Origin: a virus
Length of the DNA stretch: 13,220 nt
Virus record (IMG/VR): IMGVR_UViG_3300045988_070639
Span: 1-13,220 of that record
Direction: 5' to 3' (one strand)
Shown: piece after piece, positions 1-13,220 of the stretch
Position numbering within the stretch: the first letter of the stretch is position 1
Layout of the letters: each line of letters starts with the position of its first letter
Notes under the pieces: generated by a model
Seen by the model: the letters and a program-made list of their open reading frames with translations, nothing else
Told to the model about the DNA's origin: nothing
Database searches by the model: none
Made by a program: the position numbers and the translations under genes

Positions 1-119
1 AAAGTGTATCACTTGATTTTCGCGGACATTTGTTTACCCCACACGGATATTCTTTCTGTCTCTTGTGCGTGGACAGTGTTCATATGACATGGGCAATAGG
101 TATGATATATTTACGTTAT

Positions 120-137
120 ATGTTTCACGTGAAACAT
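120..137. repeat. 18-bp perfect palindrome ATGTTTCACGTGAAACAT inside ITR-L; candidate dimeric protein-binding site
   Basis: Read directly: ATGTTTCAC|GTGAAACAT is its own reverse complement. A120 pairs with T137; the symmetry breaks at 119/138. A second copy lies at 13084-13101. Confidence 0.9.
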
Positions 138-337
138 CACATAGTTAGTCAAGCCTAACACGTCCGGCGTAGTGTCCACGGCTCATGCACAAAACAGGGC
201 ATTGTTTTCGAACATTTGACAGTTTTTGACGAACAGAACCGCCGGGTGTAATTATAGCCCCGGCAAAAATCGTTGTGTAGGGCCGTCCAGGGCCTCACAG
301 AGGTATTGGCATATTGCACAAAACAGAGGGCGAATAA

Positions 338-357
338 TTGGGTAATTCTTGGGTAAT
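338..357 (+). promoter_or_regulatory. Tandem direct repeat TTGGGTAAT x2 with 11-bp phasing, just upstream of the ITR promoter -35; candidate operator or activator site
   Basis: TTGGGTAAT occurs at 338-346 and 349-357. The second copy ends 9 nt before the -35 hexamer at 366-371. Confidence 0.5.
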
Positions 358-365
358 ATTCCAAC

Positions 366-393
366 TTGAACTTTCCGGAAAGTGTGGTATAAT
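366..393 (+). promoter_or_regulatory. Inward-facing sigma-70/sigma-A-type promoter in ITR-L (extended -10)
   Basis: TTGAAC (366-371), a 16-nt spacer, TG at 385-386, and TATAAT (388-393). It is followed by a purine-rich leader and the first + strand gene. Confidence 0.65.
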
Positions 394-449
394 ATAATCA
401 CAAAGGGAAAGGAAGTTCCGATGAAATAATGAAAGGACGGTAATTAAAA

Positions 450-668
450 ATGACGTACGGCGAATTTTTTAAGGCTTGCGAAGATGGGAAAATTGTGGCG
501 TATGATAAGAAAAGTGTACGGGGCTACGTGTCCCGCCGCTTGAAAGACAGCGACCCCTTAACAATGGGCGTTGCCGGTGGTTGTAGAGCCGGTGAAAAAT
601 ATGTGTTGCTCCCCCGTTGGGACAGCACAAGTTATTGCTACCGGGTATACTTTAGGGAGGTTCTGTGA
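450..668 (+). CDS. Hypothetical early protein (72 aa)
   Basis: This is the first ORF downstream of the ITR promoter and leader. Its stop is 2 nt before the next start, fitting the tight gene packing. No recognisable motif. Confidence 0.6.
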   Translation: MTYGEFFKACEDGKIVAYDKKSVRGYVSRRLKDSDPLTMGVAGGCRAGEKYVLLPRWDSTSYCYRVYFREVL

Positions 669-669
669 A

Positions 670-984
670 ATGAATCTATTGTTGGAGACTCTCGACAGCC
701 TACATTGCAATGGGAAAAATCCTAGTGATGTCGAATGGGTAGGGCGTAGAAGTACTAGTGCGGTATGCAGTTGGGATGAGTTTGAAAAACAGGCTAGATA
801 TATCGAATATGATAATGGTTATGGCATTCCTGAGGTACCGGAGGATTTGGTCATAGTTGGTGCCAATTGGTGGTTGGAGCGCTATGAATATAACGGGTCA
901 GAGTGGTGGGAGTATAAAGCACTCCCGAAGAAGTGGGATAAATATACAACTGAGTTAGGGTTAAAATATATTAGGAGGTGGTAA
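670..984 (+). CDS. Hypothetical early protein (104 aa), Trp-rich (..GANWWLERYEYNGSEWWEY..)
   Basis: An in-frame ATG at 670 is preceded by AGGGAGG (654-660). The longer 571 start would overlap the upstream gene by about 100 nt and has no SD. Confidence 0.7.
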   Translation: MNLLLETLDSLHCNGKNPSDVEWVGRRSTSAVCSWDEFEKQARYIEYDNGYGIPEVPEDLVIVGANWWLERYEYNGSEWWEYKALPKKWDKYTTELGLKYIRRW

Positions 985-986
985 CA

Positions 987-1349: not shown

Positions 1350-1350
1350 A

Positions 1351-1509
1351 GTGAAAGTTGTAAATAGATGTAACCGGATTTTGTCCATGCCGGACAGCCT
1401 CACCAAGATGTTAAAGGTGTGGAACTTTGTTGGGGAGTGTCTACCGTATGGGAATTGGTGGACCCTTGCAATGCGAGAGTTTAACCGGCTCTACAATTTG
1501 GGGTATTGA
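1351..1509 (+). CDS. Hypothetical small protein (52 aa, GTG start)
   Basis: GTG at 1351 lies 7 nt after GAGGGG (1338-1343) and 2 nt after the upstream stop. This matches the 2-3 nt inter-gene spacing of its neighbours. The start is uncertain, since the ORF track begins at 1279. Confidence 0.4.
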   Translation: MKVVNRCNRILSMPDSLTKMLKVWNFVGECLPYGNWWTLAMREFNRLYNLGY

Positions 1510-1510
1510 A

Positions 1511-2191
1511 ATGGCAAGACGAAAGCAAACAAAATGGTTAAAACCGGAGGGGAGCCGCTACCGGCTCCCGGACTATTATTATGACCCGACAAAAGTCTAT
1601 GACTGGGCGGGGGATCCTGAGGACGTCCGCAGTGCGAAGGACGAGTATATAAGACTCCGCAAAACCGCTATGCAACGGCTCAGGAGCATTAAAAAGGCTG
1701 GCTTTGCATGGACAGACGGCTATAAAACGTTTGATGAATATCTTCGTCCGGCTAGCAAGTTGACCACCTTCGCAGACCTTGCCGTGGGCTTGCAGAATTT
1801 GGTGGAATTTTTCGAAACGCCACAAAAAACTACTATAACAGGCATTAGGGAAAATATAAATAAGCATATTAAAGCATTTCAGGCGAGGGGTATTGACTTT
1901 ATCAGCACGAACGAAGATTTTCATTTATTCACAGAATTTTTACAATTACGAATACAGATGGGGCTAGCAGAAATGTATGACAGCGAACAGATTATTGATC
2001 TAGTTAAAGACATGAAGGATCTGAACATTGACTCAGAAACGATAAAGGCGAATTTTGCAGAATTTCTAAAGTCCTCCGCCGGTGGCACGTTGCGGAAGGA
2101 ATACAGGGAGGCGGCGAACGATGGAGTTGAAAAGTATAGCCGCCGAAAGCGCAATCCCGTACCTGCAAGCGGCGAAACCTCTGGAAAGTAA
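1511..2191 (+). CDS. Candidate terminal protein (TP) for protein-primed replication (226 aa)
   Basis: The gene sits immediately upstream of, and overlapping, the protein-primed polB gene, as phi29 gene 3 does with gene 2. It has a basic N-terminus, MARRKQTKW (phi29 TP starts MARSPRIRI, from memory). The segment AKDEYIRLRKTAMQRLRSIKKAGF (nt 1634-1705) resembles phi29 TP DKAEYARLVKNTKAKIARTKKKYG. ATG at 1511 lies 2 nt after the previous stop. Confidence 0.6.
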   Translation: MARRKQTKWLKPEGSRYRLPDYYYDPTKVYDWAGDPEDVRSAKDEYIRLRKTAMQRLRSIKKAGFAWTDGYKTFDEYLRPASKLTTFADLAVGLQNLVEFFETPQKTTITGIRENINKHIKAFQARGIDFISTNEDFHLFTEFLQLRIQMGLAEMYDSEQIIDLVKDMKDLNIDSETIKANFAEFLKSSAGGTLRKEYREAANDGVEKYSRRKRNPVPASGETSGK

Positions 2192-4220
2192 GGGTGGAAG
2201 AAGAAAACAAAGTGCAAGAAATGACATAGTTACACTAGACCAAATCGCCGCTTTTGACATTGAGACCACTCGGCTAAAGCCGGAAGATTTTCCCGAATTA
2301 TCAGCCCCGGAGAAAATCCGGGGCGAATGGGTAGAAACCCGCCGCAACGAACAGTCTATCATGTATATCTGGACCTTATGTCTCCATGAAAAGTGCATGA
2401 TAATCGGCAGAACATGGGACGAATTTACAGCCATGATTGACGGTTGGAACGAATATCTTGTGCAAAATGATTACCGTCTTGTGATATGGGTTCATAATCT
2501 GTCATACGAATTTCAGTTTCTGTCCGGAATCCACAGATTTTCCAGGGAAGATGTTATGGCGGTAAAGTCCCGGAAAGTCCTTGCGTGTACATGGGGTAAC
2601 ATTGAATTTAGATGTTCATATCTTCATTCCAATATGAATTTGGACACGTTCACGAACAAAATGCACGCAGAACACACAAAATTATCCGGAAAAGAGTTTG
2701 ATTATACAAAAATCCGTTTCCCGTGGACAGAAATGACACAAAACGAACTTGCATATTGTACAAACGATACTCAGGGACTATGCGAAGCCTTGGCAAATGA
2801 AATGCAAGCGGACGGCGACACATTGGATACAATTCCCCGCACGTCAACCGGATATGTACGGCGGGACGTGCGAAATGCAATCCGAAGCAACAAAGAGTTG
2901 GTTTATAAAATTCGTGCGATCTTTCCCGATATGGACGTATATACCTATTTGCGGGAGGCTTTTAGGGGCGGTAACACCCACGCTAATCGTCACTATGCCG
3001 GAAAAGTGTTACACAATGTAGTATCGGCGGACCGGTCCAGCAGTTATCCGGATGTGCAGTGCAATAACTTGTTTCCAATGGGCGAGTTCAAGAGGCTGGG
3101 TCGGTCCACCGTGGAAAGACTTCTGTCCATGCATGACAGAGGAACCGCCACGCTTGCACGGATTGCTATAGCAAACTGTCACTTGCGGCATATATCGGAC
3201 GGATGCCCCTATATCCCCCGGGACAAATGCCGCCAAATTGTGAATGGGGTCTATGATAACGGGCGAGTTATAGCGGCGGATTATCTTGAAATAACAGTGA
3301 CGGATATTGATCTACAGATTATCGTTGACCACTACAACGGCACATATATAGTTATCGGCGGTTTTTACTCTACTTATGGCAAGTTGCCGCCGGAAATGGT
3401 GGGGGTTTTGTGTGACCTTTATCGCAAAAAGACCGAATTAAAAAACGTAGGAGGACAGGAATTGATATATGCAAAAAGTAAAGCAAAGTTGAATAGCGTG
3501 TATGGTATGACAGCCCAAAACCCCGCAAAGCCTGAGGTCTATTTTGATGGCGAATGGGGGGAAGATGCTCTAAATATTGGGGAAGCCCTGGCAGATGCTC
3601 AGCGCAATGCCTTTTTGTCATATGCGTGGGGCGTGTGGACAACTGCGTGGGCAAGATACCACTTGCAAAGCGCTATTGATTTGGTCGGGACTAGATTTGT
3701 GTATTGTGATACCGATTCTGTCAAATATCTGGAAACAAATGTTCCCCCCGACTGGACATCGTACAACAATGACCGTATAGCGGCAAGCAAACAGTCCGGG
3801 GCGTGGGCGATTGACCCGTCAGGGGAAGCCCACTACATGGGCGTATTTGAACCGGATGGAAAATACCCCGCTTTTGCAACTCTAGGGGCGAAAAAGTACG
3901 CATATTCGGACGAAAATGGGAAAACACACGTCACAATAGCAGGAGTGAGCAAAAAAGAGGGCGGTCCCGAACTGGATGCCGGGGACGAGTACGGAAAGGG
4001 GCTGGACCGATTTGTAAACACAAATCCGGGGTTTCTTTTTCGAAAAGCTGGCGGGGCCGAACTGATGTACAATGACCACCCGGCTATCACGTCTTTAACG
4101 GTTGACGGTCATGTATTGCCGATAACCGCTAACGTGGTTATTAGAGATAGTACGTATCAGCTTGGCATTACCGCAGAATATAACAAAATTTTACAGGAAA
4201 TTACAAAAGAAAAACATTGA
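2121..4220 (+). CDS. Family-B DNA polymerase, protein-primed type (phi29-like, DNA_pol_B_2 / PF03175-like), 699 aa
   Basis: Motifs read from the translation:
- ExoI FDIETT (2253-2270)
- ExoII HNLSYEFQF (2493-2519)
- ExoIII YCTND (2754-2768)
- motif A DRSSSYP (3030-3050)
- motif B KLNSVYG (3486-3506)
- motif C YCDTDS (3702-3719)
- KxY KKY (3891-3899)
The start is set at ATG 2121, 9 nt after AGGGAGG (2105-2111). Confidence 0.95.
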   Translation: MELKSIAAESAIPYLQAAKPLESKGGRRKQSARNDIVTLDQIAAFDIETTRLKPEDFPELSAPEKIRGEWVETRRNEQSIMYIWTLCLHEKCMIIGRTWDEFTAMIDGWNEYLVQNDYRLVIWVHNLSYEFQFLSGIHRFSREDVMAVKSRKVLACTWGNIEFRCSYLHSNMNLDTFTNKMHAEHTKLSGKEFDYTKIRFPWTEMTQNELAYCTNDTQGLCEALANEMQADGDTLDTIPRTSTGYVRRDVRNAIRSNKELVYKIRAIFPDMDVYTYLREAFRGGNTHANRHYAGKVLHNVVSADRSSSYPDVQCNNLFPMGEFKRLGRSTVERLLSMHDRGTATLARIAIANCHLRHISDGCPYIPRDKCRQIVNGVYDNGRVIAADYLEITVTDIDLQIIVDHYNGTYIVIGGFYSTYGKLPPEMVGVLCDLYRKKTELKNVGGQELIYAKSKAKLNSVYGMTAQNPAKPEVYFDGEWGEDALNIGEALADAQRNAFLSYAWGVWTTAWARYHLQSAIDLVGTRFVYCDTDSVKYLETNVPPDWTSYNNDRIAASKQSGAWAIDPSGEAHYMGVFEPDGKYPAFATLGAKKYAYSDENGKTHVTIAGVSKKEGGPELDAGDEYGKGLDRFVNTNPGFLFRKAGGAELMYNDHPAITSLTVDGHVLPITANVVIRDSTYQLGITAEYNKILQEITKEKH

Positions 4221-4245
4221 CAAATTGAAAAGGCTCTGATATAAT
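4217..4245 (+). promoter_or_regulatory. Consensus sigma-A-type promoter with extended -10
   Basis: TTGACA (4217-4222), a 17-nt spacer, TG (4237-4238), and TATAAT (4240-4245). The -35 hexamer contains the polymerase TGA stop (4218-4220). A 5-bp hairpin, GTTGG-AAAA-CCAAC (4253-4266), lies at the predicted transcript 5' end. Confidence 0.75.
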
Positions 4246-4303
4246 ATAGACAGTTGGAAAACCAACACAAAATAAAATCAAAAACTGAAAGGAAGCAACA
4301 ACA

Positions 4304-4648
4304 ATGGAAATTATCAAAATGAGTAAGAACGTGGAGGGTGCCGACCTGTATTTTCTCACCACGTCCCCGGAGATTGAGAAAATGACTACCGTAAAGGGTG
4401 AAACCCTGGCTCTTGACAAGTGGGCGCTGTTTGCCGATGCCGACCGTAAAACCGGAGAGATGCGGCGAATCCTCTCCATCAAGTCCGGCAATAAGATGTA
4501 CGCCACCAACTCCGCAACGTTTATCGACAGCTTTGTAGCAATGATGGAGTGTTTTGACACGATGGGCATCGATGTCCACCATATCCGGGTTACTACCGGC
4601 AATAGCAAGGGCGGTAGGGAGTTTATCAATTGCGTGTATGCCGACTGA
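4304..4648 (+). CDS. Candidate single-stranded DNA-binding protein (phi29 p5-like), 114 aa
   Basis: Its size is close to phi29 p5 (124 aa). The C-terminal pattern ..KMYATNSATFIDSF...HHIRVTTGNSKGGREFINCVY resembles p5 ..SLYSAISKTVAEAA...FKVKVVQGTSSKGNVFFSLQL, recalled from memory and not aligned. It forms a stand-alone unit with a consensus promoter, SD GAAAGGAAG and its own terminator, consistent with very high expression. Confidence 0.5.
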   Translation: MEIIKMSKNVEGADLYFLTTSPEIEKMTTVKGETLALDKWALFADADRKTGEMRRILSIKSGNKMYATNSATFIDSFVAMMECFDTMGIDVHHIRVTTGNSKGGREFINCVYAD

Positions 4649-4655
4649 TCGCACA

Positions 4656-4685
4656 AACAAAGGCCCGGGAAACCGGGCTTTTGTT
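4656..4685 (+). terminator. Rho-independent terminator
   Basis: Stem GCCCGG (4663-4668) pairs with CCGGGC (4673-4678) around a GAAA tetraloop, followed by TTTTGTT. Flanking A and T runs extend the stem. Confidence 0.8.
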
Positions 4686-4699: not shown

Positions 4700-5743
4700 A
4701 TGGAAAATATTTATACTCCGGACGGTTGGCTGGACGTACCGAAAATTGTTGCAAAGCCATACCCCTTTATTTTTTGCACCGGGGCTCGGGGTGTCGGTAA
4801 GACCTATGGCGCATTGAAGTATGTTATTGAAAACGGCATACCTTTTATATATTTGCGCCGGACCCTAACGGAAACCGAATTTCTGGCGGCGAATGAAAGC
4901 AATAACCCTTTTGCCCGGCTGAATGAAGATACCGGGGAATGCGTGGGCCTGTCAAAATCGGGCAAATATACAACGGAAATTGTGCGCCGGGTCCCGGACG
5001 GTGATAAGCTGATACCGGACGGCCCACCGGTTGGGATGATGCTGGCGTTATCTACAATTAGCAATTTGCGTGGTTTTAACGGCGAACAATACAGTATAAT
5101 TGTATATGACGAATTTATACCGGAACCACACGCACGGCCCATCCGGGAGGAATGTATGGCCTTGATGAACGCATATGAAACCATCAACCGAAACCGGGAA
5201 TTATTGGGCAAGCCGCCAGTTAAGTTGCTCTGTCTCTCCAACTCTAACCGGCTGGATAATGCTATCTATATGGGTCTGGGTCTGGTGAATAAAGTTGTGC
5301 AGATGCAACGCAAGCACCAGCAACTCAGCTATATGCCGGACCGGGGTATCATGATGGTTAATATCATGGACAGTCCCATTTCAGCCGCTAAAAGTAAAAC
5401 CGCCCTCTATCGTATGACAGCCGGAACGGAATTTGGCGCAATGGCGTTAGATAACAAGTATATCGGCGAGGACCTTGCAATGCCGAACAAATCGGAAGAT
5501 TTGCGGAATTATGACCCACTTGTAAACATTGGGGAGTTGTGTATTTACCGCCGAAAGGGCGGCGAAAACCTCTATATTACCACCCACGTTTCCGGCGGTC
5601 CAACACGGTTCGGTCTGTCGGATGCGGAATTAACAAATTTCCGCAGGAAATATAATTGGATATGGGCGAAGTATATAACCGGCAGAATTATTTTTGAAGA
5701 ACGTTTGTGCGAAATACTGCTTAATCGGTATTTTGGTGCTTGA
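4700..5743 (+). CDS. DNA packaging (encapsidation) ATPase, phi29 gp16-like, 347 aa
   Basis: Walker A is GARGVGKT (4781-4804) and Walker B is IIVYDEF (5096-5116). Further matches to remembered phi29 gp16 segments:
- PFIYLRRT vs QFIYVRRY
- CLSNS vs CLSNA
- GTEFGAMALDNKYIGED vs GTEYGEMSLDNQFIGD
ATG at 4700 follows GGAGGA (4689-4694). ATG at 4688 is an alternative start. Confidence 0.93.
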   Translation: MENIYTPDGWLDVPKIVAKPYPFIFCTGARGVGKTYGALKYVIENGIPFIYLRRTLTETEFLAANESNNPFARLNEDTGECVGLSKSGKYTTEIVRRVPDGDKLIPDGPPVGMMLALSTISNLRGFNGEQYSIIVYDEFIPEPHARPIREECMALMNAYETINRNRELLGKPPVKLLCLSNSNRLDNAIYMGLGLVNKVVQMQRKHQQLSYMPDRGIMMVNIMDSPISAAKSKTALYRMTAGTEFGAMALDNKYIGEDLAMPNKSEDLRNYDPLVNIGELCIYRRKGGENLYITTHVSGGPTRFGLSDAELTNFRRKYNWIWAKYITGRIIFEERLCEILLNRYFGA

Positions 5744-5767
5744 CAAAAGCAAACATTTGTGCTATAT
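5739..5767 (+). promoter_or_regulatory. Near-consensus sigma-A-type promoter with extended -10, upstream of the structured leader and the lysis and morphogenesis genes
   Basis: TTGACA (5739-5744), a 17-nt spacer, TG (5759-5760), and TATATT (5762-5767). The -35 hexamer contains the ATPase TGA stop (5741-5743), the same arrangement as the promoter at 4217. Confidence 0.7.
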
Positions 5768-5773
5768 TGTGTG

Positions 5774-8321: not shown

Positions 8322-8326
8322 TTGAA

Positions 8327-8367: not shown

Positions 8368-9795
8368 ATGGTCAATTTGGTGTTCGAAACTACCGGAAAA
8401 GCGTACAACTCTACACAAATTAAAGACTTCTCGCAATCCACCTGGAGATATGAGGGCGAATTTGTTGAACCTTTTGACATATTGCACCCTGTCGTGAAAT
8501 TGTGGTTGGGAGCCAATGAAGCCGGTGTGTCATATATACCCCGTAATATCAACTATGCGTTCATCCCGGAAACATCCCGGTATTACTGGGTGAGACGTTG
8601 GGAGTATGATTCCGGCATGTGGTTATGCTATCTTGACGTGGACGTATTGGCTACATATCGTAGCACAATTTTGACTTTTAACGCTTATGTCAATCGCTCT
8701 TCCAAATCCACAACCACCAGCATACCCGACTATATCACGCCGGTGCAAGCCGTTGGAGACCAGACCACCACCACATTATTGCCCACATTGGCGGGTAACA
8801 TGGCATACAATCTCAAGGATGGATATTATGTAGTCGGCATACTCAACAGCGATGCGAATAGTGTGGGGTGTGTATCGTACTATGCTTTTGACAACGCAAA
8901 TTTTCGGGCATTTTGCAAAAAGCTGATGGAGTCTCCCAACTGGGCGTTCTCCGGCATTACGGACATTTCTGAAAGTTTGTTCAAAGCCCTATTCAATCCG
9001 CTACAATATATTACAAGTTGCATGTGGTTCCCAACTTTTCCGCAGGGGTTCGCAAATTCAACGTTTTCTATGCCTTTCGGCTGGTGGAATTTCACCGTTA
9101 CCGGATTCCGAATTGGTACAACAACTAGAACGTTTGAATTTGAGTGTACAATGCCACTGCACCCGCAGTTTACTGACCGGGGGCTGTTTGTTGAGACTGC
9201 ACCGTTCACCCTGCGGGATGTGTACTGGGCACCGATTGGGACAATCCCGCTTGACATGAGTTGCAATTACAATACCGATTTGCGATTGCAAGTGCTGATT
9301 GATTTTTGCACCGGTGCTTCCCCCTACAAAATCTACACCGTTGCGGCAAGTGGAGCGACAACGGACCTGTCCGCCGGTAGTGTGCAAATCGGTGTACCGC
9401 TACAGATTGGGCAAATCGTCAATGATTATATTGGAGCCGCTAAAAATGTGCTATCCGCTGTTGGTTCGGGTTTTTCCCTCGACATTGGCGGGGCTGTCAA
9501 CGGCGTTCTCAACGCCGCTGAATCGCTAATCCCCGCACCGTCCACCAGCGGCACAAACGGAAGTGTTGCCGGATTCGCCGAAAATCCCGTACTGCATAGC
9601 CGGTTTTACACTTCTCAAGCCCCGGTGGCTAACGTGGTGGGTTTGCCGTTTGGCGGGTTTGCACAGTTGAGGACACACGCCGGAGGGTATGTACAATGCG
9701 GCACCGTACTAGCTGTTGACAACGGTGTGGGAATGTTCCCGGAGGAAAAACAGGAAATTGTTGCACAGCTTCAAAGCGGGGTGTATTTGGACTAA
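8368..9795 (+). CDS. Tail knob / distal tail tube protein, phi29 gp9-like, 475 aa
   Basis: Three segments resemble remembered phi29 gp9:
- N-terminal RYYWVRRWEYDSGMWLCYLDVDVLATY vs NKWFYAFVTELEF...VHFEIDVLQTW
- an internal Gly/Ala-rich segment, IGAAKNVLSAVGSGFSLDIGGAVNGVLNAA
- C-terminal GYVQCG...EEKQEIVAQLQSGVYL vs NYVQTKD...NDLQEIRTIFDNGITLW
The position after the capsid gene matches phi29. Confidence 0.65.
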   Translation: MVNLVFETTGKAYNSTQIKDFSQSTWRYEGEFVEPFDILHPVVKLWLGANEAGVSYIPRNINYAFIPETSRYYWVRRWEYDSGMWLCYLDVDVLATYRSTILTFNAYVNRSSKSTTTSIPDYITPVQAVGDQTTTTLLPTLAGNMAYNLKDGYYVVGILNSDANSVGCVSYYAFDNANFRAFCKKLMESPNWAFSGITDISESLFKALFNPLQYITSCMWFPTFPQGFANSTFSMPFGWWNFTVTGFRIGTTTRTFEFECTMPLHPQFTDRGLFVETAPFTLRDVYWAPIGTIPLDMSCNYNTDLRLQVLIDFCTGASPYKIYTVAASGATTDLSAGSVQIGVPLQIGQIVNDYIGAAKNVLSAVGSGFSLDIGGAVNGVLNAAESLIPAPSTSGTNGSVAGFAENPVLHSRFYTSQAPVANVVGLPFGGFAQLRTHAGGYVQCGTVLAVDNGVGMFPEEKQEIVAQLQSGVYLD

Positions 9796-10355
9796 TGGCT
9801 ACATTTATCCCACGTCTGGATTCTGACGGAATGTGGCAAAATCCGAAATGGTACGCCGATAATGTGTTTTATACATCCGGCTACGGTTTGCCTAACTGTA
9901 CCTGTTACGCATGGGGCCGCTTTTGGGAAATTGGTGGGGGCCGTCCGGCCCTGCCAACTTCTAACGGCGGCGAGTGGTGGGCAGATGCTCAGGCGAGTGG
10001 CGCATACCGGACCGGACAGGTTGCACAGGTGGGGGCCGTTGCCTGTTATGAGGACCTGGACGGCGGGGCCGGTCATGTGGCAGTCGTTGAGCGGATAAAC
10101 ACGGATGGAACTCTGCTAATTTCGCAATCCGCATGGCGCAGACCCTTGACCGATTATCCCCCGGATATGGAGGGCTATTTCTGGACTAATACCACGGTAG
10201 GGTCTACTAATATGGCGCAATGGTTAATCAATGGCAACTATGCTTTTCAGGGGTTTATATACCACCCCGATTTTCCGCCCGGGCCTACCCCAACGCCCAC
10301 GGGGATTCCGGCGTGGTTGCTTTTCAAGTTTAAGCCGTATATGGTCAAGAGGTGA
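9795..10355 (+). CDS. CHAP-domain peptidoglycan hydrolase (PF05257-like), probably virion/tail-associated, 186 aa
   Basis: The catalytic Cys lies in the context PNCTCYAWGR (Cys codon 9897-9899) and the His in GHVAVVE (10074-10076). The gene is embedded between the tail knob and portal genes, with a TAATG stop/start overlap with the knob gene. Confidence 0.85.
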   Translation: MATFIPRLDSDGMWQNPKWYADNVFYTSGYGLPNCTCYAWGRFWEIGGGRPALPTSNGGEWWADAQASGAYRTGQVAQVGAVACYEDLDGGAGHVAVVERINTDGTLLISQSAWRRPLTDYPPDMEGYFWTNTTVGSTNMAQWLINGNYAFQGFIYHPDFPPGPTPTPTGIPAWLLFKFKPYMVKR

Positions 10356-10362
10356 TACAAAA

Positions 10363-11274
10363 TTGGATTTACCATATTATTACAACTATTCAAACGTCAT
10401 TGACGCAAAAACGTCTCCGTCTGGCGTACACGTTACAAACACCGCCACCGCAACTTTTTTCCGGCGGTACTTGCTTCAAAAGGCTATGAGCGTTTTTGAG
10501 TGGACCATGCCCAAATTTTGGAGCAAAGACTATTTTTTGTATAGTCTATATATCGGTGGTTCCGTTGCGATTATCGAGACGGATAAATATGGAGTGATTC
10601 CACAGGGCGGACAGCCATCCGGCTACAACGTGTTCTATCAGCCCCGGCAGTATTACATTGCAAACCCGCTATTACAGGGCATCAAGTACCCAATTATCAA
10701 CGAGCAATGCACCGTGTTCAAATGTACCCGGGATTGGGGCGGCATTATGGACCTAGTTAGCTTTTACGGGGACTATATGGCACTGGCGGCGCAGGCGATG
10801 GGGGTCAACCTTTTCAATTCCCGTCTAGCCTATGTTTTCGGGGCCAAAAATCAAGCAACTGCCGAAAGTTTTAAAAAGGCTTTTGACCGTGTGGCAAGCG
10901 GTGACCCCGCCGTGGTGGTTGACAAGTCCATGTTCACGGATGACGGCGAGTTTGCCACCCCGTTTTTTGAACAAAATGTTGGACAAAATTACATTTCCGA
11001 CAGGCTGATTGAGGCTCTACTAAATATCGATAATATGTTCTGTACCACGGTTGGGATTCCCAACGCCAACTATAACAAGAGAGAGCGCACGGCTAGTGGT
11101 GAAATTGGTATTAACAATTTTGAAACCCGGTGCATGGCTGACAGTTGGTTGGAGGGCTGGATGGAAAGTTGCGAGAAAACCAAACAGATGTTCGGGATTG
11201 ACATTTCCGTGGATTGGCGGGAAAATAAGGAGGAGTTTGCAAATGTGCTGGAACAGGATGCGCCCAACGGTTAG
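10363..11274 (+). CDS. Portal (upper collar / connector) protein, phi29 gp10-like, 303 aa, TTG start
   Basis: YLLQKAMSVFEWTMPKF resembles YLQSLAYQLFEWENLP. GIPNANYNKRERTASGEIG...SCEKTKQMFGIDISVDWR resembles GIKNANLEKKERMVTDEV...ACEKINELYGLNVKVKFR (phi29 gp10, from memory). TTG at 10363 lies 7 nt after AAGAGGTGA (10346-10354). The resulting length is close to gp10 (309 aa). Confidence 0.85.
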   Translation: MDLPYYYNYSNVIDAKTSPSGVHVTNTATATFFRRYLLQKAMSVFEWTMPKFWSKDYFLYSLYIGGSVAIIETDKYGVIPQGGQPSGYNVFYQPRQYYIANPLLQGIKYPIINEQCTVFKCTRDWGGIMDLVSFYGDYMALAAQAMGVNLFNSRLAYVFGAKNQATAESFKKAFDRVASGDPAVVVDKSMFTDDGEFATPFFEQNVGQNYISDRLIEALLNIDNMFCTTVGIPNANYNKRERTASGEIGINNFETRCMADSWLEGWMESCEKTKQMFGIDISVDWRENKEEFANVLEQDAPNG

Positions 11275-11899
11275 CTATCTGGGTCTGTATAACTACGACC
11301 CTTCACTTTTTGATGATTTTGACCTACCGGACAGCATTCTGGACCGGGGGCTGGATGTATTTGTTGTTGACCTTCTGTCCGAAATTGGACAGCTTGAAGC
11401 CCTCTATCCCAACGCCATCGTATTCAAAAAAATCCTAAAAGCATGGAGCAAAACCCGGATGCCGGAGTGGCAAAGGGTGGAAACCGCTTTAACGGCGGAA
11501 TATAACCCCATTCACAATTTTGACCGCAATGAAGATTATACAGACACAAATACCGAAAAAGAAACAGGAACGAGCAACAGCACGAGCAGTACCGAAAGCA
11601 CAGCGAACGGAACGAACGAAAATAGTGAATCTGTAACGGCATTTAATACGGAAAGTTTTAAGAACCGAACAAAAAATGCCGGGACGGATACCGCCACCAG
11701 CAATGCAAGCGCGACTAACAAAAGTGACAATACGGTAACGAGGGAAACAAACGTGCAACACACGGCGCACCTATACGGCAATATCGGCGTTACCACGTCG
11801 CAACAGATGATCAACGAAGAGTTAGCCATGCGGCGGGGTGATTTGGAGTCGTATATCATTGACGATTTCAAGCACCGGTTTTGTCTGATGGTATATTAG
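11243..11899 (+). CDS. Candidate lower collar / head-tail adaptor (218 aa) with S/T/N-rich central segment
   Basis: The gene follows the portal gene, as phi29 gp11 does. ATG at 11243 lies 8 nt after AAGGAGG (11228-11234) and overlaps the portal gene by 32 nt. The central region of about 74 residues (nt 11537-11758) is dominated by T, S, N and E. Function assigned by synteny only. Confidence 0.5.
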   Translation: MCWNRMRPTVSYLGLYNYDPSLFDDFDLPDSILDRGLDVFVVDLLSEIGQLEALYPNAIVFKKILKAWSKTRMPEWQRVETALTAEYNPIHNFDRNEDYTDTNTEKETGTSNSTSSTESTANGTNENSESVTAFNTESFKNRTKNAGTDTATSNASATNKSDNTVTRETNVQHTAHLYGNIGVTTSQQMINEELAMRRGDLESYIIDDFKHRFCLMVY

Positions 11900-11911
11900 G
11901 AGGTGTAATAA

Positions 11912-12469
11912 ATGGGACTTTTTAATCATTTCCCCTACCCGGACACACACCAGCTTAACCTTGACTGGATTCTTGAGACGGTCAAAGGTTGCATGGATAA
12001 AGTCACAGAGTTATGGACCTACGTCAAGGAGCCGGGATCCGGCATTCAAAAAGCATTGACGGATGCCCAGGCGGCGGCGACTACTGCCCAAACTAGCGCC
12101 GCAGATGCCCAGACGTCTGTAACAAATGCACAAAAGTTTGCTACTGACGCACAGAATCATGCGAACAATGCCGGAGAATCCGCTGATTTGTGCGCCGAAT
12201 ATCTGAACGGTATGCAAGCCATGATGGGCAAGCTATACCCGGTTGGGGCCGTGTATGTCAATTACCGTAACCAAGCGATGCCGGTAGAAAGTGACACCAC
12301 CGTGATTGCAAGGCTCAAAGCGCTGACCGGCGGCACGTGGACAAGAGCCGGGAGCCATGGACAGCCGGTAACAGCGTCCGGGCAAATGGGTTGGGCTACC
12401 GTCATTCTAGGCAATGCGGCTGGCGATGCTGTCGATACCAATTTCAATATTTACGTCCGCACGGCGTAA
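11912..12469 (+). CDS. Short tail fibre / appendage (receptor-binding protein candidate), 185 aa
   Basis: The N-terminus FNHFPYPDTHQLNLDWIL matches a motif I recall at the N-termini of tail-fibre proteins from Gram-positive phages. Six exact heptads ending in AQ (nt 12050-12175) suggest a coiled coil. A small C-terminal domain reads YPVGAVYVNY...GGTW. SD AGGAGGTG (11898-11905). Confidence 0.65.
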   Translation: MGLFNHFPYPDTHQLNLDWILETVKGCMDKVTELWTYVKEPGSGIQKALTDAQAAATTAQTSAADAQTSVTNAQKFATDAQNHANNAGESADLCAEYLNGMQAMMGKLYPVGAVYVNYRNQAMPVESDTTVIARLKALTGGTWTRAGSHGQPVTASGQMGWATVILGNAAGDAVDTNFNIYVRTA

Positions 12470-12505
12470 TAATTGCCCCCGGCCAGAAACCGGGGGCTAT
12501 TATTA
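12467..12505. terminator. Bidirectional intrinsic terminator between convergent genes
   Basis: GCCCCCGG (12475-12482) pairs with CCGGGGGC (12490-12497) around a 7-nt loop. The stem is extended by TAATAAT / ATTATTA arms, which contain the stop codons of both convergent genes. Confidence 0.75.
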
Positions 12506-12769
12506 TGCATGATATTCAGCGTCAGGCGTGTACTTCCACACCGTCCGCCCCTTAAGATTTTCAATAGACGTTCCGTCCCGGATACAATCGCCAGCTGTAT
12601 CATAATACCAGCCTCGGCACTGCTCGAAAAATTTGCTCCACGTTTTAAAACTGATAAAGCCCATATTAGTCATTCGATAAAAACTATCCCATATTTTATC
12701 AAATTCTTCACGACTTCTAGAATAATTCACCAACGTTTCTTTCATATTCGTTACGTTTAACGCTTTCAT
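12503..12769 (-). CDS. Hypothetical right-end protein (88 aa); the only leftward gene
   Basis: The ATG (complement of 12767-12769) lies 8 nt outside the ITR-R boundary, downstream of the ITR-R copy of the promoter and leader. The stop lies in the bidirectional terminator. No recognisable motif. Confidence 0.65.
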   Translation of the reverse strand: MKALNVTNMKETLVNYSRSREEFDKIWDSFYRMTNMGFISFKTWSKFFEQCRGWYYDTAGDCIRDGTSIENLKGRTVWKYTPDAEYHA

Positions 12770-12827
12770 TGTTTTTGTTACCGTCCTTTCATTATTTCAT
12801 CGGGACTTCCTTTCCCTTTGTGATTAT

Positions 12828-12855
12828 ATTATACCACACTTTCCGGAAAGTTCAA
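12828..12855 (-). promoter_or_regulatory. Inward-facing promoter in ITR-R (mirror copy of 366-393)
   Basis: This is the reverse complement of the ITR-L promoter and is identical to it. It drives the - strand gene 12769..12503. Confidence 0.65.
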
Positions 12856-13083
12856 GTTGGAATATTACCCAAGAATTACCCAATTATTCGCCCTCTGTTT
12901 TGTGCAATATGCCAATACCTCTGTGAGGCCCTGGACGGCCCTACACAACGATTTTTGCCGGGGCTATAATTACACCCGGCGGTTCTGTTCGTCAAAAACT
13001 GTCAAATGTTCGAAAACAATGCCCTGTTTTGTGCATGAGCCGTGGACACTACGCCGGACGTGTTAGGCTTGACTAACTATGTG

Positions 13084-13101
13084 ATGTTTCACGTGAAACA
13101 T
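13084..13101. repeat. ITR-R copy of the 18-bp palindrome ATGTTTCACGTGAAACAT
   Basis: Mirror position of 120-137; read directly. Confidence 0.9.
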
Positions 13102-13220
13102 ATAACGTAAATATATCATACCTATTGCCCATGTCATATGAACACTGTCCACGCACAAGAGACAGAAAGAATATCCGTGTGGGGTAAACAAATGTCCGCG
13201 AAAATCAAGTGATACACTTT

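What the first reader, a model, noticed from the sequence alone, without database searches (positions are those of the whole stretch)
1..13220. The window is a complete, very small protein-primed podophage genome
The ITRs coincide exactly with both window ends, so the sequence runs from terminus to terminus. Inside is a full phi29-type gene set: a TP candidate, polB, an SSB candidate, a gp16-like ATPase, a scaffold candidate, the capsid protein, the tail knob, the portal, a collar candidate, a fibre, and lysis genes.

At 13.2 kb it is about two-thirds the size of phi29 (about 19.3 kb) and near the lower bound for tailed phages. Its long ITRs and unidirectional gene layout also differ from the classical phi29 map. 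It probably represents a divergent lineage of the protein-primed podophages.
Basis: partly seen in the sequence, partly recalled or inferred. Interest (0 to 1): 0.75.

Follow-up and report, generated by a model that had tools for sequence, protein, structure and literature searches.

The report
Complete small phi29-like gut phage genome
The window is a complete 13.2-kb linear genome of a phi29-type (protein-primed) short-tailed phage from the human gut; the genome is an ordinary member of a large, already sequenced clade, but it carries a previously undescribed structured RNA built like the phi29 packaging RNA.

Summary
A 449-nt inverted terminal repeat (3 mismatches) runs to both window ends. 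An independent assembly reproduces the unique region and the same three arm differences. A second species (about 85% identical) ends on the same decamer, AAAGTGTATC (phi29 ends AAAGTA).

The phi29 gene set is real: PolB, SSB, gp16-type ATPase, capsid, tail knob (Foldseek hits only phi29 gp9), connector, lower collar, CHAP lysin, holin and amidase. The terminal-protein candidate has no detectable similarity to phi29 TP. It rests on strict synteny (directly upstream of PolB in 81/81 loci) and an invariant serine.

Three corrections:
- The layout is not strictly unidirectional. An 88-aa gene on the minus strand is driven by the right ITR's promoter.
- 13.2 kb is not the lower bound; isolates of 10.4-12.3 kb exist.
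- The lineage is not new. More than 200 relatives of 12-15 kb are public, including cultured Amedibacillus phage AD70P2.

New here: a roughly 70-nt RNA (5776-5845) behind its own promoter, present across the family and absent from Rfam. It has phi29 pRNA topology and strong covariation, including bulge/loop complementarity (27 different duplexes, p<=2e-4). The genome is a new member of a known kind. The RNA is the interesting part.

The parts
1..449 (.). Left inverted terminal repeat, non-coding. It starts AAAGTGTATC (3'-TTT on the template strand, as in phi29).
   Evidence: phi29 terminus 5'AAAGTA from PMC11476376
12772..13220 (.). Right inverted terminal repeat (3 differences from the left copy, at mirror positions 417, 444 and 445).
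   Evidence: the same differences appear in independent assembly L081
122..135 (.). 14-bp palindrome GTTTCACGTGAAAC inside the ITR (mirror copy at 13086-13099). Operator-like site found across the family.
   Evidence: 2 matches, 0.09 expected; GTTTCAYRTGAAAC is in 65 of 87 loci
366..393 (+). Inward-facing promoter-like site in the ITR (TTGAAC-16-TATAAT with TG). Its mirror at 12855-12828 is on the minus strand. It is followed by an RBS and an ATG at the ITR boundary at both ends.
   Evidence: conserved in L002 and L004 ITRs
450..668 (+). Early gene, 72 aa, unknown function.
   Evidence: conserved at 82-93% in L001, L002 and L004; called as a gene in L081; no Pfam or PHROG hit
670..984 (+). Early gene, 104 aa, PHROG 3972 (unknown function).
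   Evidence: E 4e-20; gene call in L081
987..1349 (+). Early gene, 120 aa, unknown function.
   Evidence: 90-95% conserved in close relatives; gene call; no family
1448..2191 (+). Terminal-protein candidate. The conserved core starts at ATG 1511 (226 aa). It is all-helical, with an invariant Ser (residue 158 of the 226-aa form, nt 1982-1984) in a YDSE motif.
   Evidence: directly upstream of PolB on the same strand in 81/81 loci; 266 homologs, mostly 170-260 aa; invariant S158; AF2 pLDDT 87.8; no Pfam, PDB or Foldseek link to phi29 TP
2121..4220 (+). Family-B DNA polymerase of the protein-primed type. The ORF opens at 2082. The start is probably ATG 2121, overlapping the TP gene end.
   Evidence: PF03175 E 1.3e-13; phrog_1907 E 1.6e-61; the only PDB hit is phi29 DNAP 1xhx/2ex3, E 1.4e-15
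4217..4245 (+). Perfect sigma-70 consensus (TTGACA-17-TATAAT, with TG) ahead of the SSB gene.
   Evidence: 12/12 matches
4304..4648 (+). phi29-type single-stranded DNA-binding protein, 114 aa.
   Evidence: PF17427 is weak for the window protein (E 0.059), but 9 of 12 family members hit it, best E 1.6e-6
4663..4678 (.). GC hairpin GCCCGGGAAACCGGGC followed by TTTTGTTAT. Terminator-like, between the SSB and ATPase genes.
   Evidence: the scanner lists it on the minus strand; the plus-strand reading is from the sequence
4700..5743 (+). gp16-type DNA packaging ATPase, 347 aa (first in-frame ATG at 4688).
   Evidence: PF05894 E 7.5e-19; phrog_2150 E 1e-28; gene call
5740..5768 (+). Promoter-like site TTGACA-17-TATATT (with TG). 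Its -35 box overlaps the ATPase stop codon. The predicted start is about 5775-5776, the first base of the RNA's closing helix.
   Evidence: 11/12; invariant in 5 genomes; equivalent promoters in L017 and L026
5776..5845 (+). Core of a conserved structured RNA with phi29-pRNA topology. A helix 5776-5785/5835-5844. C helix 5786-5789/5810-5813. 5' bulge AAGGACA 5790-5796. E helix 5797-5800/5806-5809. E loop CGGAA 5801-5805. D helix 5815-5819/5827-5831. D loop CUGUCCA 5820-5826. Bulge GGACA is complementary to loop UGUCC.
5849..5910 (+). Second, clade-specific structured segment downstream of the RNA core (predicted only).
   Evidence: RNAalifold on 5 close genomes with 1 compensatory pair; absent from clades with 112-125 nt gaps
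5938..6141 (+). Holin, 67 aa.
   Evidence: phrog_4898 E 4.6e-10 on residues 72-129 of the longer ORF; homology and gene calls begin at 5938
6145..6816 (+). Endolysin: N-acetylmuramoyl-L-alanine amidase plus a SPOR domain.
   Evidence: PF01520 E 6e-11 and PF05036 E 1.7e-11; phrog_435
6813..7136 (+). Scaffold candidate, 107 aa, directly upstream of the capsid gene. It contains a 15-nt tandem repeat (PEPPK x4, 6896-6970) whose copy number varies between isolates.
   Evidence: position only; repeat; 97 aa in L081 and indels; no family hit
7152..8321 (+). phi29-type major capsid protein, 389 aa.
   Evidence: PF25622 E 3.3e-14; phrog_2006
8368..9795 (+). Tail knob (phi29 gp9 homolog), 475 aa. The disordered stretch at residues 351-396 may correspond to the gp9 lumenal loop.
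   Evidence: the top PDB profile hit is 5fb4, E 0.022, in two co-linear stretches; AF2 pLDDT 78; the Foldseek top 7 are all phi29 gp9, E 1e-12, prob 1.00
9795..10355 (+). CHAP-domain peptidoglycan hydrolase, placed between the knob and portal genes (probable tail-associated lysin, gp13-like role).
   Evidence: PF05257 E 2e-16; the role is inferred from position
10363..11274 (+). Portal/connector (phi29 gp10 type), 303 aa.
   Evidence: PF05352 E 3.7e-16; phrog_2038 E 9e-24; start from gene calls and homology
11243..11899 (+). Lower collar / proximal tail-tube connector (phi29 gp11 type), 218 aa.
   Evidence: the top PDB profile hit is 6qz9 'Proximal tail tube connector protein', E 0.012; phrog_3225 adaptor in 8/12 members, best E 5e-11, and phrog_5472 lower collar in 1
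11912..12469 (+). Tail fibre / receptor-binding candidate, 185 aa. It is the most variable structural gene.
   Evidence: weak tail-fibre PHROG hits, E 1e-4; 62-83% identity in genomes that are otherwise 92-97% identical
12475..12497 (.). 8-bp all-GC hairpin between the convergent fibre gene and the minus-strand gene. Terminator-like.
12503..12769 (-). 88-aa gene of unknown function on the minus strand. It starts 3 nt inside the right ITR boundary and is driven by the ITR promoter.
   Evidence: 62.5% identity over its full length in L004, against 44.6% for the overlapping plus-strand ORF; called on the minus strand in L081 and L082; no family

Best explanation
The window is the complete (or complete to within a few terminal bases) linear dsDNA genome of a virulent phi29-type podophage from the human gut, most likely infecting a Gram-positive Clostridia host.

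Replication (inferred from the phi29 model). A terminal protein is encoded directly upstream of a phi29-type family-B polymerase. It primes synthesis at the 3'-TTT ends, and each 5' end stays covalently capped. The 449-nt ITRs provide identical origins at both ends.

Transcription (shown by sequence, not by experiment). Each ITR carries an inward-facing promoter, an RBS and an adjoining start codon. The left ITR drives the early genes: three small ORFs, TP and PolB. The right ITR drives one 88-aa gene on the opposite strand. Internal promoters sit before the SSB gene and after the ATPase gene.

Virion and lysis. A gp16-type ATPase packages unit-length DNA into a capsid built from phi29-type MCP and portal. 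The tail has a lower collar, a gp9-type knob, a CHAP lysin and a short fibre. Lysis uses a holin and an amidase-SPOR endolysin.

The RNA. Behind the promoter that overlaps the ATPase stop codon lies a covariation-supported RNA of about 70 nt. It has the same element order as the phi29 prohead RNA: closing helix, three-way junction, an arm with a 5' bulge, and a hairpin arm whose loop is complementary to that bulge. My favoured reading (inferred, about 0.5-0.6) is that it is this lineage's packaging RNA, docking the ATPase onto the portal through ring formation by bulge/loop pairing.
For: Termini and completeness:.

Free molecule of about 13 kb:
- TP and knob homologs lie only on contigs of at most 15.6 kb.
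- The listed capsid-cluster members lie on contigs of at most 13.5 kb.
- All 80 relatives found in 185,579 species genomes are stand-alone MAG contigs of at most 15.06 kb.
- No close relative sits inside any genome.
- No integrase or tRNA was found.

Gene set:
- PolB.
- SSB.
- ATPase, MCP, connector.
- Knob.
- Collar.
- Lysins and holin.

TP candidate:
- Synteny in 81/81 loci.
- 266 homologs.
- Invariant Ser.
- Confident helical model.

Source and host:
- A human gut metagenome sample.
- MAG bins are mostly Clostridia.
- Amidase, SPOR and CHAP lysins.

RNA:
- 94% identity across genomes that are about 85% identical overall.
- One hit per locus in 29 IMG/VR loci and in 42 independent MAG contigs, plus GenBank MT835998.
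- 91% of cells paired against 56% in shuffles.
- 25 of 28 pairs show double-sided changes.
- Covariation score 0.81, against 0.09-0.18 in controls.
- The large clade has a 105-nt version that is 97.8% paired.
- Bulge/loop test: cognate pairs average 4.2 Watson-Crick bp against 2.5 for non-cognate pairs, with 27 distinct duplex sequences and p<=2e-4.
- The element order is the same as the Rfam consensus structure of phi29 pRNA.
- CE/D-loop pairing is what assembles pRNA rings (PMC5066667).
- A promoter-RNA-terminator unit in L017, and separate promoters for the RNA and the late genes in L026.
Against: - No read-level data, so abrupt coverage ends and the absence of end-joining reads were not checked.
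- A few terminal bases could be missing. The related contig L004 lacks about 75 nt at both ends.
- The TP candidate has no sequence or fold similarity to phi29 TP, so protein priming is inferred from the polymerase type, synteny and the ITRs.
- Host assignment from MAG binning is weak. Some bins are Bacteroidales or Spirochaetia.
- For the RNA, the curated pRNA model RF00044 does not match even at E<=10, and my model does not detect phi29 pRNA.
- In the window's own clade no terminator separates the RNA from the holin gene, so the RNA may be part of the late mRNA leader.
- In L005 the RNA travels with the late genes, not with the ATPase gene.
- Whether the bulge/loop pairing is in cis or in trans cannot be told from sequence.
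- Single-sequence folding energy is not unusual (z = +0.28).
Confidence: 0.9

Rival explanations
1. The conserved RNA at 5776-5845 is not a packaging RNA. It is a cis-acting 5' leader of the late (lysis and structural) operon, for example a put-like RNA that modifies RNA polymerase for antitermination, or a translational or timing control of the holin. In this reading the bulge/loop pairing is an intramolecular pseudoknot.
For: - In the window's clade no terminator lies between the RNA and the holin start codon.
- In clades with 112-125 nt gaps the RNA ends 25-30 nt before the next RBS.
- In L005 the RNA sits at the head of the inverted late module, next to the holin gene and far from the ATPase gene.
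- The C and D arms are of similar length (4-5 bp), so the bulge and the loop could meet in cis (inference).
- No match to Rfam pRNA.
Against: - In L017 the RNA is followed at once by an intrinsic terminator.
- In the largest clade it is followed by a 10-bp hairpin plus TTTTGTTT (sequence), and the late genes have a second promoter. In those clades it is therefore a separate small transcript.
- The element-by-element match to pRNA, including a 5'-side-only bulge that pairs with the other arm's loop by 3-6 nt (mostly 4-5), is specific.
- These phages keep a gp16-type ATPase, which in phi29 needs pRNA to dock (PMC5066667). No other RNA candidate was found.
Confidence: 0.35
2. The terminal inverted repeat is an assembly artefact (fold-back or duplicated end). 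The real genome would then be circular, circularly permuted or incomplete.
For: - Metagenome assemblers can create inverted-repeat ends, and a survey of gut phage contigs warns of such artefacts (PMC9610469).
- Several related contigs are cut symmetrically inside their ITRs, for example L004 and L081.
Against: - The two arms differ at 3 positions, and an independent assembly from another sample reproduces those differences.
- The inner ITR boundaries abut two different genes.
- A species about 15% diverged ends at the same homologous base with the same decamer.
- ITRs are found across the family, at least 313 nt in L068 and at least 222 nt in L005, and in cultured AD70P2 (55 nt perfect).
- The terminus resembles that of phi29.
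Confidence: 0.03
3. It is a prophage, or a linear plasmid or phage-plasmid, and not a free virulent phage genome.
For: Phage-plasmids with phi29-like features exist among the more than 2000 database entries surveyed in PMC11476376. Relatives are binned into bacterial MAGs.
Against: - There are no integrase, partition or plasmid-replication genes.
- Every relative is a stand-alone contig of 12-15 kb and none is flanked by host DNA.
- The MCP scan of 185,579 genomes found no close relative.
- A full virion and lysis gene set fills the genome.
Confidence: 0.02
4. It is a helper-dependent mini-phage, like Acinetobacter phage Phanie, which needs the tail of an unrelated myophage to be infectious.
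For: - The genome is very small.
- The receptor-binding candidate is only 185 aa and there is no phi29 gp12-type appendage.
- PMC11476376 reports that Phanie (11.9 kb) depends on a helper.
Against: - The genome encodes a full-length gp9-type knob with the disordered internal segment, a lower collar, a CHAP tail lysin and a fibre.
- The review ties the Phanie-type strategy to the Gram-negative-infecting clade, which has altered knob and collar proteins.
- Cultured Amedibacillus relatives were isolated on a single host strain.
Confidence: 0.04

Closest known systems
Bacillus phage phi29 (Salasmaviridae, Picovirinae)
   Same: - Linear genome with ITRs that start AAAGT.
- TP-candidate gene directly upstream of a protein-primed family-B polymerase. 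phi29 DNAP is the only PDB match.
- phi29-type SSB, gp16 ATPase, MCP, connector, lower collar and tail knob.
- Core order of scaffold, MCP, knob, connector, collar and fibre.
- An RNA with the same helix/bulge/loop grammar as pRNA.
   Different: - 13.2 kb against 19.3 kb.
- ITR of 449 nt against 6 nt, carrying promoters.
- Genes are almost all on one strand instead of divergent early and late blocks.
- ATPase, holin and endolysin precede the structural genes instead of following them.
- A CHAP lysin sits between the knob and portal genes.
- No head fibre, no gp12 appendage and no recognisable p4 or p6.
- The TP is unrelated in sequence and fold.
- The RNA core is about 70 nt against 117-174 nt. 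It lies mid-genome at the head of the late genes, not at the left end, and is not recognised by RF00044.
- No nucleotide similarity.
Uncultivated human-gut relatives: IMG/VR UViGs of set 3300045988 (L001-L004), GenBank MT835998 and related MT83xxxx records, and the TPA 'Caudoviricetes sp.' record holding DAH13601.1
   Same: L001-L004 share 84-87% nucleotide identity, the same gene order, homologous ITRs and 87-93% identical PolB. An MCP from the same >=90%-identity cluster is in GenBank as DAH13601.1, on a 13,081-nt contig. MT835998 has 51% PolB identity and carries the RNA.
   Different: These are different species by nucleotide identity. The fibre gene and the right-end small gene are swapped or diverged. 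L005 (53% PolB identity) has the whole late module inverted.
Amedibacillus phages AD70P2 and AD70P3 (cultured; filed under Guelinviridae in GenBank)
   Same: - 12.3 kb.
- 14 genes on one strand plus one small opposing gene at the far end.
- ITRs.
- PolB at 36% and MCP at 30% identity.
- A 123-nt gap after the packaging ATPase gene that by eye folds into the same RNA design.
   Different: - 26.7% GC against 48%.
- ITR of only 55 nt (perfect).
- The RNA is not detected by my covariance model.
- The review notes that its taxonomy needs clarification.
phi29 prohead RNA (Rfam RF00044, Phage_pRNA)
   Same: - A closing A helix formed by the 5' and 3' ends.
- A three-way junction.
- A C-E arm with a bulge on the 5' side only.
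- A D hairpin.
- Watson-Crick complementarity between that bulge and the D loop, kept through covariation.
- Its own promoter, and size in the range of the 71-nt prohead-binding core of pRNA.
   Different: - No detectable sequence or profile similarity in either direction.
- Shorter helices.
- A near-invariant CGGAA E loop.
- A different genomic position and orientation.
- In some clades there is no terminator before the next gene.
- Function untested.
Astrithrvirus (Salmonella phage astrithr), Acinetobacter phage Phanie, Vibrio phage K58 g2
   Same: Genomes of 10.4-11.9 kb with phi29-type PolB (about 32-34% identity) and MCP (22-26%), with a mostly one-directional layout.
   Different: They infect Gram-negative hosts and have short ITRs (18 nt perfect in astrithr). 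No hit with the RNA model in astrithr. Phanie depends on a helper phage.

Membership tests
phi29-like protein-primed podophages (the broad group surveyed in PMC11476376) | Family-B DNA polymerase of the protein-primed (PF03175) type | tested here: met
   PF03175 E 1.3e-13. phrog_1907 E 1.6e-61. The sole PDB match is phi29 DNAP, E 1.4e-15, with Kx3NSxYG and YCDTDS aligned.
phi29-like protein-primed podophages (the broad group surveyed in PMC11476376) | Linear genome with inverted terminal repeats at the physical ends | tested here: met
   A 449-nt ITR at both contig ends. The same terminal decamer appears in a second species. Arm differences are reproduced in an independent assembly. Physical ends were not shown by reads.
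phi29-like protein-primed podophages (the broad group surveyed in PMC11476376) | Terminal protein gene adjacent to the polymerase gene | tested here: inconclusive
   A conserved helical protein of 226-247 aa lies directly upstream of PolB in 81/81 loci and has an invariant Ser. It has no sequence or fold similarity to phi29 TP. The review reports that TP homology is detectable only within Salasmaviridae.
phi29-like protein-primed podophages (the broad group surveyed in PMC11476376) | Protein covalently bound to the 5' ends of virion DNA | not testable with these tools
   This needs virion DNA, with a protease-dependent gel entry or exonuclease protection assay.
phi29-like protein-primed podophages (the broad group surveyed in PMC11476376) | gp16-type packaging ATPase, phi29-type MCP and gp10-type connector | tested here: met
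   PF05894 E 7.5e-19, PF25622 E 3.3e-14 and PF05352 E 3.7e-16, all above the Pfam cut-offs.
phi29-like protein-primed podophages (the broad group surveyed in PMC11476376) | gp9-type tail knob and gp11-type lower collar | tested here: met
   Knob: the Foldseek top 7 hits are all phi29 gp9, E 1e-12, and the PDB profile hit is 5fb4. Collar: the PDB profile top hit is 6qz9, E 0.012 (weak), supported by PHROG adaptor hits in 8/12 members.
Salasmaviridae / Guelinviridae / Rountreeviridae (ICTV families) | Genome-wide or proteome-wide clustering with family members (VIRIDIC or vConTACT-type criteria) | not tested
   No such tool was available. Indirect evidence: no megablast hit to any GenBank phage. 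The best cultured relative is AD70P2 (Guelinviridae in GenBank), at 36% PolB and 30% MCP identity. I therefore do not file the genome in any ICTV family.
Rfam RF00044 Phage_pRNA | Match to the curated covariance model at the gathering score (100 bits) | tested here: not met
   No hit in the whole window at E<=1, nor in 5740-5940 at E<=10. phi29 itself scores 145 bits.
Rfam RF00044 Phage_pRNA | Secondary-structure grammar: A helix, three-way junction, C-E arm with a 5' bulge, D hairpin | tested here: met
   The consensus structure line of RF00044 on phi29 has the same order of elements as the structure supported by covariation here.
Rfam RF00044 Phage_pRNA | Watson-Crick complementarity between the CE bulge and the D loop, maintained by covariation | tested here: met
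   Columns left out of the model are 80% paired, with compensatory changes. Cognate 4.2 bp against non-cognate 2.5 bp, 27 duplex sequences, p<=2e-4. Whether the pairing is intermolecular could not be tested.
Rfam RF00044 Phage_pRNA | Binds the prohead/connector and is required for ATPase docking and DNA packaging | not testable with these tools
   This needs biochemistry on a cultured relative.

The most novel reading that the evidence does not exclude
The roughly 70-nt RNA at 5776-5845, and its relatives in at least 120 related genomes from human and animal guts, is a miniature prohead (packaging) RNA. If so, pRNA-dependent packaging is not a peculiarity of phi29 and its Bacillus relatives, as current reviews state. 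It would instead be a widespread, probably ancestral, feature of phi29-type phages that has diverged beyond sequence recognition. The family would supply dozens of natural variants of the three-way junction and the self-assembling loop pair (27 different duplexes seen here).
Probability: 0.5. Interest if true: 0.8.

Novelty: new member of a known kind. Interest (0 to 1): 0.55.

Why it matters
As a genome it adds little. It is one more complete member of an abundant, uncultivated clade of 12-15 kb phi29-type phages in human and animal guts. It is useful as a reference with true termini, long promoter-bearing ITRs and a nearly one-directional map.

The value is in the RNA. phi29's pRNA is the only known RNA component of a viral DNA-packaging motor. 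It is a workhorse of RNA nanotechnology and a long-standing evolutionary puzzle: is it a relic or a late recruit? Reviews describe it as confined to phi29 and related Bacillus phages (PMC5066667, PMC11476376).

An RNA with the same architecture and co-varying self-complementary loops now turns up across a distant branch of the same phage group, including a probable copy in a cultured phage. That makes the question of how widespread pRNA is, and what its minimal form looks like, directly testable. If the RNA instead proves to be a late-operon leader, it is still a new, very well supported structured RNA family of gut phages that is missing from Rfam.

Tried and rejected
- **Terminal protein by homology.** I tried phmmer and a 52-sequence profile against the PDB, Pfam on all 52 members, and an AF2 model (pLDDT 87.8) with Foldseek against the PDB. 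Nothing links it to phi29 TP. The designer-PPR hits are repeat artefacts, since no stretch passes on its own.
- **pRNA in the ITR.** I looked for one near the left end, as in phi29. The ITR strand towards the terminus folds no better than shuffles (z = -0.35) and gives no Rfam hit, so I dropped the idea.
- **Single-sequence folding of the 5744-5945 gap.** It is also unremarkable (z = +0.28). Only comparative analysis revealed the RNA.
- **Long holin ORF.** The 133-aa ORF from TTG 5740 was rejected. Its N-terminal 66 residues overlie the RNA, are Cys/Pro/Gly-rich, and are broken by indels in relatives.
- **Plus-strand ORF 12473-12760.** Rejected in favour of the minus-strand ORF.
- **ORF 1279-1509.** Poorly conserved. 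At most its last 40 codons might be a gene, and it has no family hit.
- **PolB start.** The automatic 595-aa call was rejected because it would remove the N-terminal exonuclease region, which relatives align to from residue 30-55 of the 712-aa ORF.
- **Host and integration search.** The MCP scan found nothing. The knob alignment was too diverse to search with. An ATPase profile worked.
- **RNA model on isolates.** R1 does not detect an RNA in AD70P2, astrithr, Clostridium phage HM2 or phi29.
- **Weak Rfam hits.** IMES-4, SAM_alpha, Rev39 and Tymo_tRNA-like are all far below their gathering scores, so I dismissed them as chance.

Full report
**1. The observation**

The window has a 449-nt inverted repeat, with arms at 1-449 and 12772-13220. 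A base-by-base comparison finds mismatches only at positions 417, 444 and 445, and complete divergence from 450 onward. The repeat therefore reaches both window ends exactly. The window is a whole contig: its exact capsid and knob proteins are recorded on a 13,220-nt JGI/IMG contig. One sample that holds the same capsid protein is labelled a human gut metagenome.

**2. Are these real ends?**

Three results argue against an assembly artefact.
- ENA contig L081, from a different sample, equals window 298-12923 with no mismatches. It shows the same three differences between the left and right arms. The arms are therefore two separately assembled genomic copies.
- L002 (13,309 nt, about 85% nucleotide identity over the unique region) has a homologous ITR and starts at both ends with the same decamer, AAAGTGTATC.
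- In an alignment of the ITRs of three species, the two copies within a genome are nearly identical, but copies from different genomes differ by 15-19%. This concerted evolution is expected if each end is regenerated from the other during replication.

The first five bases match the phi29 terminus, 5'-AAAGTA (PMC11476376). The terminal AAA is what the phi29 sliding-back initiation mechanism requires (established knowledge of phi29, not tested here). ITRs occur across the wider family, though most contigs are cut short inside them. I could not examine reads.

**3. Free genome or integrated element?**

- Homologs of the TP candidate and the knob protein lie only on contigs of at most 15.6 kb.
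- Listed capsid-cluster members lie on contigs of at most 13.5 kb.
- A scan of one genome from each of 185,579 species found no close relative of the capsid.
- With an ATPase profile, the same scan found 80 distant relatives. Every one is a stand-alone MAG contig of at most 15.06 kb.
- No integrase, partition gene or tRNA is present.

Most of the MAG bins are Clostridia (Eubacteriales, Acutalibacteraceae, Oscillospiraceae, Lachnospiraceae, Christensenellaceae). They come from human, ruminant, horse and rabbit guts. This is only a weak host clue, because some bins are Bacteroidales or Spirochaetia.

**4. Gene content**

Above the Pfam cut-offs:
- PolB (PF03175).
- gp16 ATPase (PF05894).
- Amidase_3 plus SPOR.
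- Phi29_MCP (PF25622).
- CHAP.
- The connector (PF05352). PHROGs agree and add a holin.

Polymerase: its only PDB match is phi29 DNA polymerase (E 1.4e-15).

SSB: the candidate is weak on its own (E 0.059). However, 9 of 12 family members hit Phi29_Phage_SSB, with a best E of 1.6e-6.

Tail knob: the 475-aa protein had no hit as a single sequence.
- A 37-sequence profile gave phi29 gp9 (5fb4) as its top PDB hit.
- An AlphaFold model (pLDDT 78) matched only phi29 gp9 in Foldseek, which took the top seven hits at E 1e-12.

Lower collar: the profile's top PDB hit is the phi29 proximal tail-tube connector (6qz9, E 0.012). Eight of 12 members hit a PHROG adaptor family.

The scaffold and fibre assignments rest on position and weak hits. 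Gene starts were refined from homology and from independent gene calls on L081.

**5. The terminal protein**

The candidate lies immediately upstream of PolB on the same strand in all 81 related loci that hold both genes. This mirrors phi29 genes 3 and 2. A full-library search found 266 homologs, mostly of 170-260 aa. In a 52-sequence alignment the only invariant residues are Met1 and Ser158, the latter in a YDSE motif. The model is confident and all-helical.

No search links it to phi29 TP, neither by sequence nor by fold. This fits the review's statement that TP homology is detectable only within Salasmaviridae. Protein priming is therefore inferred, not shown.

**6. Layout and transcription signals**

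All large genes are on the plus strand, but the map is not strictly unidirectional. The ITR carries an inward-facing promoter-like site with an extended -10 (366-393) and an RBS. At both ends, a start codon follows at the ITR boundary.
- On the left this opens the 72-aa ORF.
- On the right it opens an 88-aa ORF on the minus strand, 12769 to 12503.

The minus-strand ORF is 62.5% identical over its full length in L004, against 44.6% for the overlapping plus-strand ORF. It is also called as a gene in L081 and L082. A GC hairpin at 12475-12497 separates it from the fibre gene.

Cultured Amedibacillus phage AD70P2 has the same plan: 14 genes one way and one small gene the other way at the far end. 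In L005 the whole late module is inverted relative to PolB, so orientation is variable in this group.

**7. Where it belongs**

No GenBank phage matches at the nucleotide level. By protein, the nearest records are:
- Unannotated human-faecal contigs (MT835998, 51% PolB identity).
- Amedibacillus phages AD70P2 and AD70P3 (36%).
- The Gram-negative-infecting Astrithrvirus group (about 32%).

IMG/VR holds 123 related loci, four of them at 87-93% PolB identity. A capsid protein from the same 90%-identity cluster is in GenBank as a TPA 'Caudoviricetes sp.' record. A 2024 survey found over 2,000 phi29-like entries, including many human-metagenome genomes of 12-14 kb (PMC11476376). Phages of 10.4-12.3 kb have been isolated. 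So the genome is small but not record-breaking, and its lineage is known though unclassified.

**8. A conserved structured RNA**

*How it was found.* Rfam found no pRNA. Across the family there is always a gap of 112-277 nt between the ATPase and holin genes. In the window, a near-consensus promoter (5740-5768) overlaps the ATPase stop codon. The 150 nt that follow are GC-rich and 94% identical in five genomes that are only about 85% identical overall.

*The fold.* RNAalifold gave the following structure, already with three compensatory pairs:
- A 10-bp closing helix.
- A three-way junction.
- An arm with a 7-nt bulge on the 5' side only.
- A hairpin arm.

The bulge (GGACA) is complementary to the hairpin loop (UGUCC). 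Gaps from distant clades fold the same way with different sequences.

*Covariance model.* I built it from ten sequences, using only the nested helices. It found:
- One hit per locus in 29 IMG/VR loci.
- One hit per locus in 42 of 80 independent MAG contigs.
- One strong hit (E 9e-11) in GenBank MT835998.

The hits are on the strand of the late genes and mostly lie just downstream of the ATPase gene.

*Covariation on the first set.*
- 91% of cells pair, against 56% in shuffles.
- 25 of 28 pairs change on both sides.
- The covariation score is 0.81, against 0.18 for shuffles and 0.09-0.16 for slid controls.
- The bulge/loop helix was not in the model. It is 80% paired, with compensatory changes at three of its five positions.

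*The largest clade.* It has a 105-nt version with one extra hairpin. On a plain MAFFT alignment it is 97.8% paired, against 22-46% for slid controls. It has six compensatory pairs, one of them in the bulge/loop contact.

*Cognate test.* Among 44 distinct bulge/loop combinations, each bulge forms on average 4.2 contiguous Watson-Crick pairs with its own loop. With the loops of other RNAs the average is 2.5. There are 27 different duplex sequences, and permutation gives p<=2e-4.

**9. What the RNA resembles**

The curated consensus structure of phi29 pRNA (RF00044, which scores 145 bits on phi29) has the same order of elements:
- The A helix.
- The C helix, a 5'-side bulge, the E helix and the E loop.
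- A short junction.
- The D hairpin.
- The A helix 3' strand.

In phi29, pairing between the CE bulge and the D loop of neighbouring molecules builds the pRNA ring on the prohead. The A helices contact the ATPase, and a 71-nt core has been crystallised (PMC5066667).

Membership of the Rfam family fails, however. RF00044 does not match the element even at E<=10, and my model does not detect phi29 pRNA. The likeness is architectural only.

Reviews state that pRNA is unique to phi29-like Bacillus phages. One preprint mentions a predicted pRNA in an archaeal ampullavirus. Six full-text searches found no report of such an RNA in gut or metagenomic phi29-like phages. The library does not cover most subscription journals.

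**10. Packaging RNA or leader?**

For a stand-alone RNA:
- In L017, a promoter, the RNA and an intrinsic terminator follow one another within about 130 nt.
- In the largest clade, the RNA is followed by a 10-bp hairpin plus TTTTGTTT (sequence).
- There the late genes have a second promoter.

For a leader:
- In the window's clade and in the short-gap clades, no terminator precedes the next gene.
- In L005 the RNA heads the inverted late module instead of following the ATPase gene.

These phages keep a gp16-type ATPase, which in phi29 needs pRNA to dock. I therefore favour the packaging-RNA reading at about 0.5-0.6, and give the cis-acting leader about 0.35. Sequence alone cannot decide between them.

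**11. Verdict**

The genome is a new member of a known and well-sampled kind, and scores low on novelty by itself. The interest comes from the RNA. It is certainly a real, family-wide structured element that is absent from Rfam, and it may extend pRNA-dependent packaging well beyond the Bacillus phages.

Noticed in passing
window 5776-5845 (+), promoter 5740-5768; also L001-L025, L079, L085 1046-1123, L088-L150: A conserved structured RNA with phi29-pRNA topology and co-varying bulge/loop complementarity lies between the ATPase and holin genes. It is absent from Rfam 15.
   Followed up: yes
window 122-135 and 13086-13099; 65 of 87 loci (e.g. L026 5571-5584, L017 4799-4812, L084 8621-8634): The 14-bp palindrome GTTTCAYRTGAAAC recurs across the whole family. 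It often appears twice, just upstream of the late genes. In the window's clade it occurs only inside the ITRs. It is probably the operator of a conserved phage DNA-binding protein.
   Followed up: partly
window 12503-12769 (-): A conserved 88-aa gene on the minus strand starts 3 nt inside the right ITR boundary, so the ITR acts as a promoter cassette at both ends. The left-end 72-aa protein has a 39%-identical homolog at the right end, on the minus strand, of L003. This suggests that ITR-proximal genes swap ends.
   Followed up: partly
window 6896-6970: A 15-nt tandem repeat encodes PEPPK x4 inside the scaffold candidate. Copy number differs between near-identical isolates: 107 aa here and 97 aa in L081.
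   Followed up: partly
L005 (IMGVR_UViG_3300045988_079297), 6600-12850: A sister lineage (53% PolB, 75% MCP identity) has the entire late module inverted relative to the replication genes, from the RNA and holin to the fibre. It starts just inside the right ITR.
   Followed up: partly
window 1982-1984 (Ser158 of the TP candidate, counted from ATG 1511): This is the only invariant residue besides Met1 in 52 diverse homologs. It sits in a YDSE motif at the start of a helix after an 8-residue loop. It is a candidate priming residue.
   Followed up: partly
window 4217-4245 and 4663-4685: A perfect 12/12 sigma-70 consensus promoter sits directly after PolB. A GC hairpin plus U-run sits directly after the SSB gene. 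The SSB gene may therefore be its own highly expressed transcription unit.
   Followed up: no
protein P0182: A 4,799-aa representative protein contains nine stretches similar to residues 40-110 of the TP candidate. Nothing else is known about it.
   Followed up: no
L003 start, L018 end, L058 start, L014 and L074 starts: Several IMG/VR contigs of this family begin or end with Illumina or Nextera adapter sequence (for example AGACGTGTGCTCTTCCGATCT and TCGTCGGCAGCGT). Their ends are library artefacts, not genome termini.
   Followed up: no
L084 (Amedibacillus phage AD70P2) 6384-6506 (-): A cultured relative has a 123-nt gap after its packaging ATPase gene. It holds a TTGACA promoter and an RNA that by eye has the same design (bulge UAUCC, second arm GGAUA). 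The covariance model does not detect it.
   Followed up: partly
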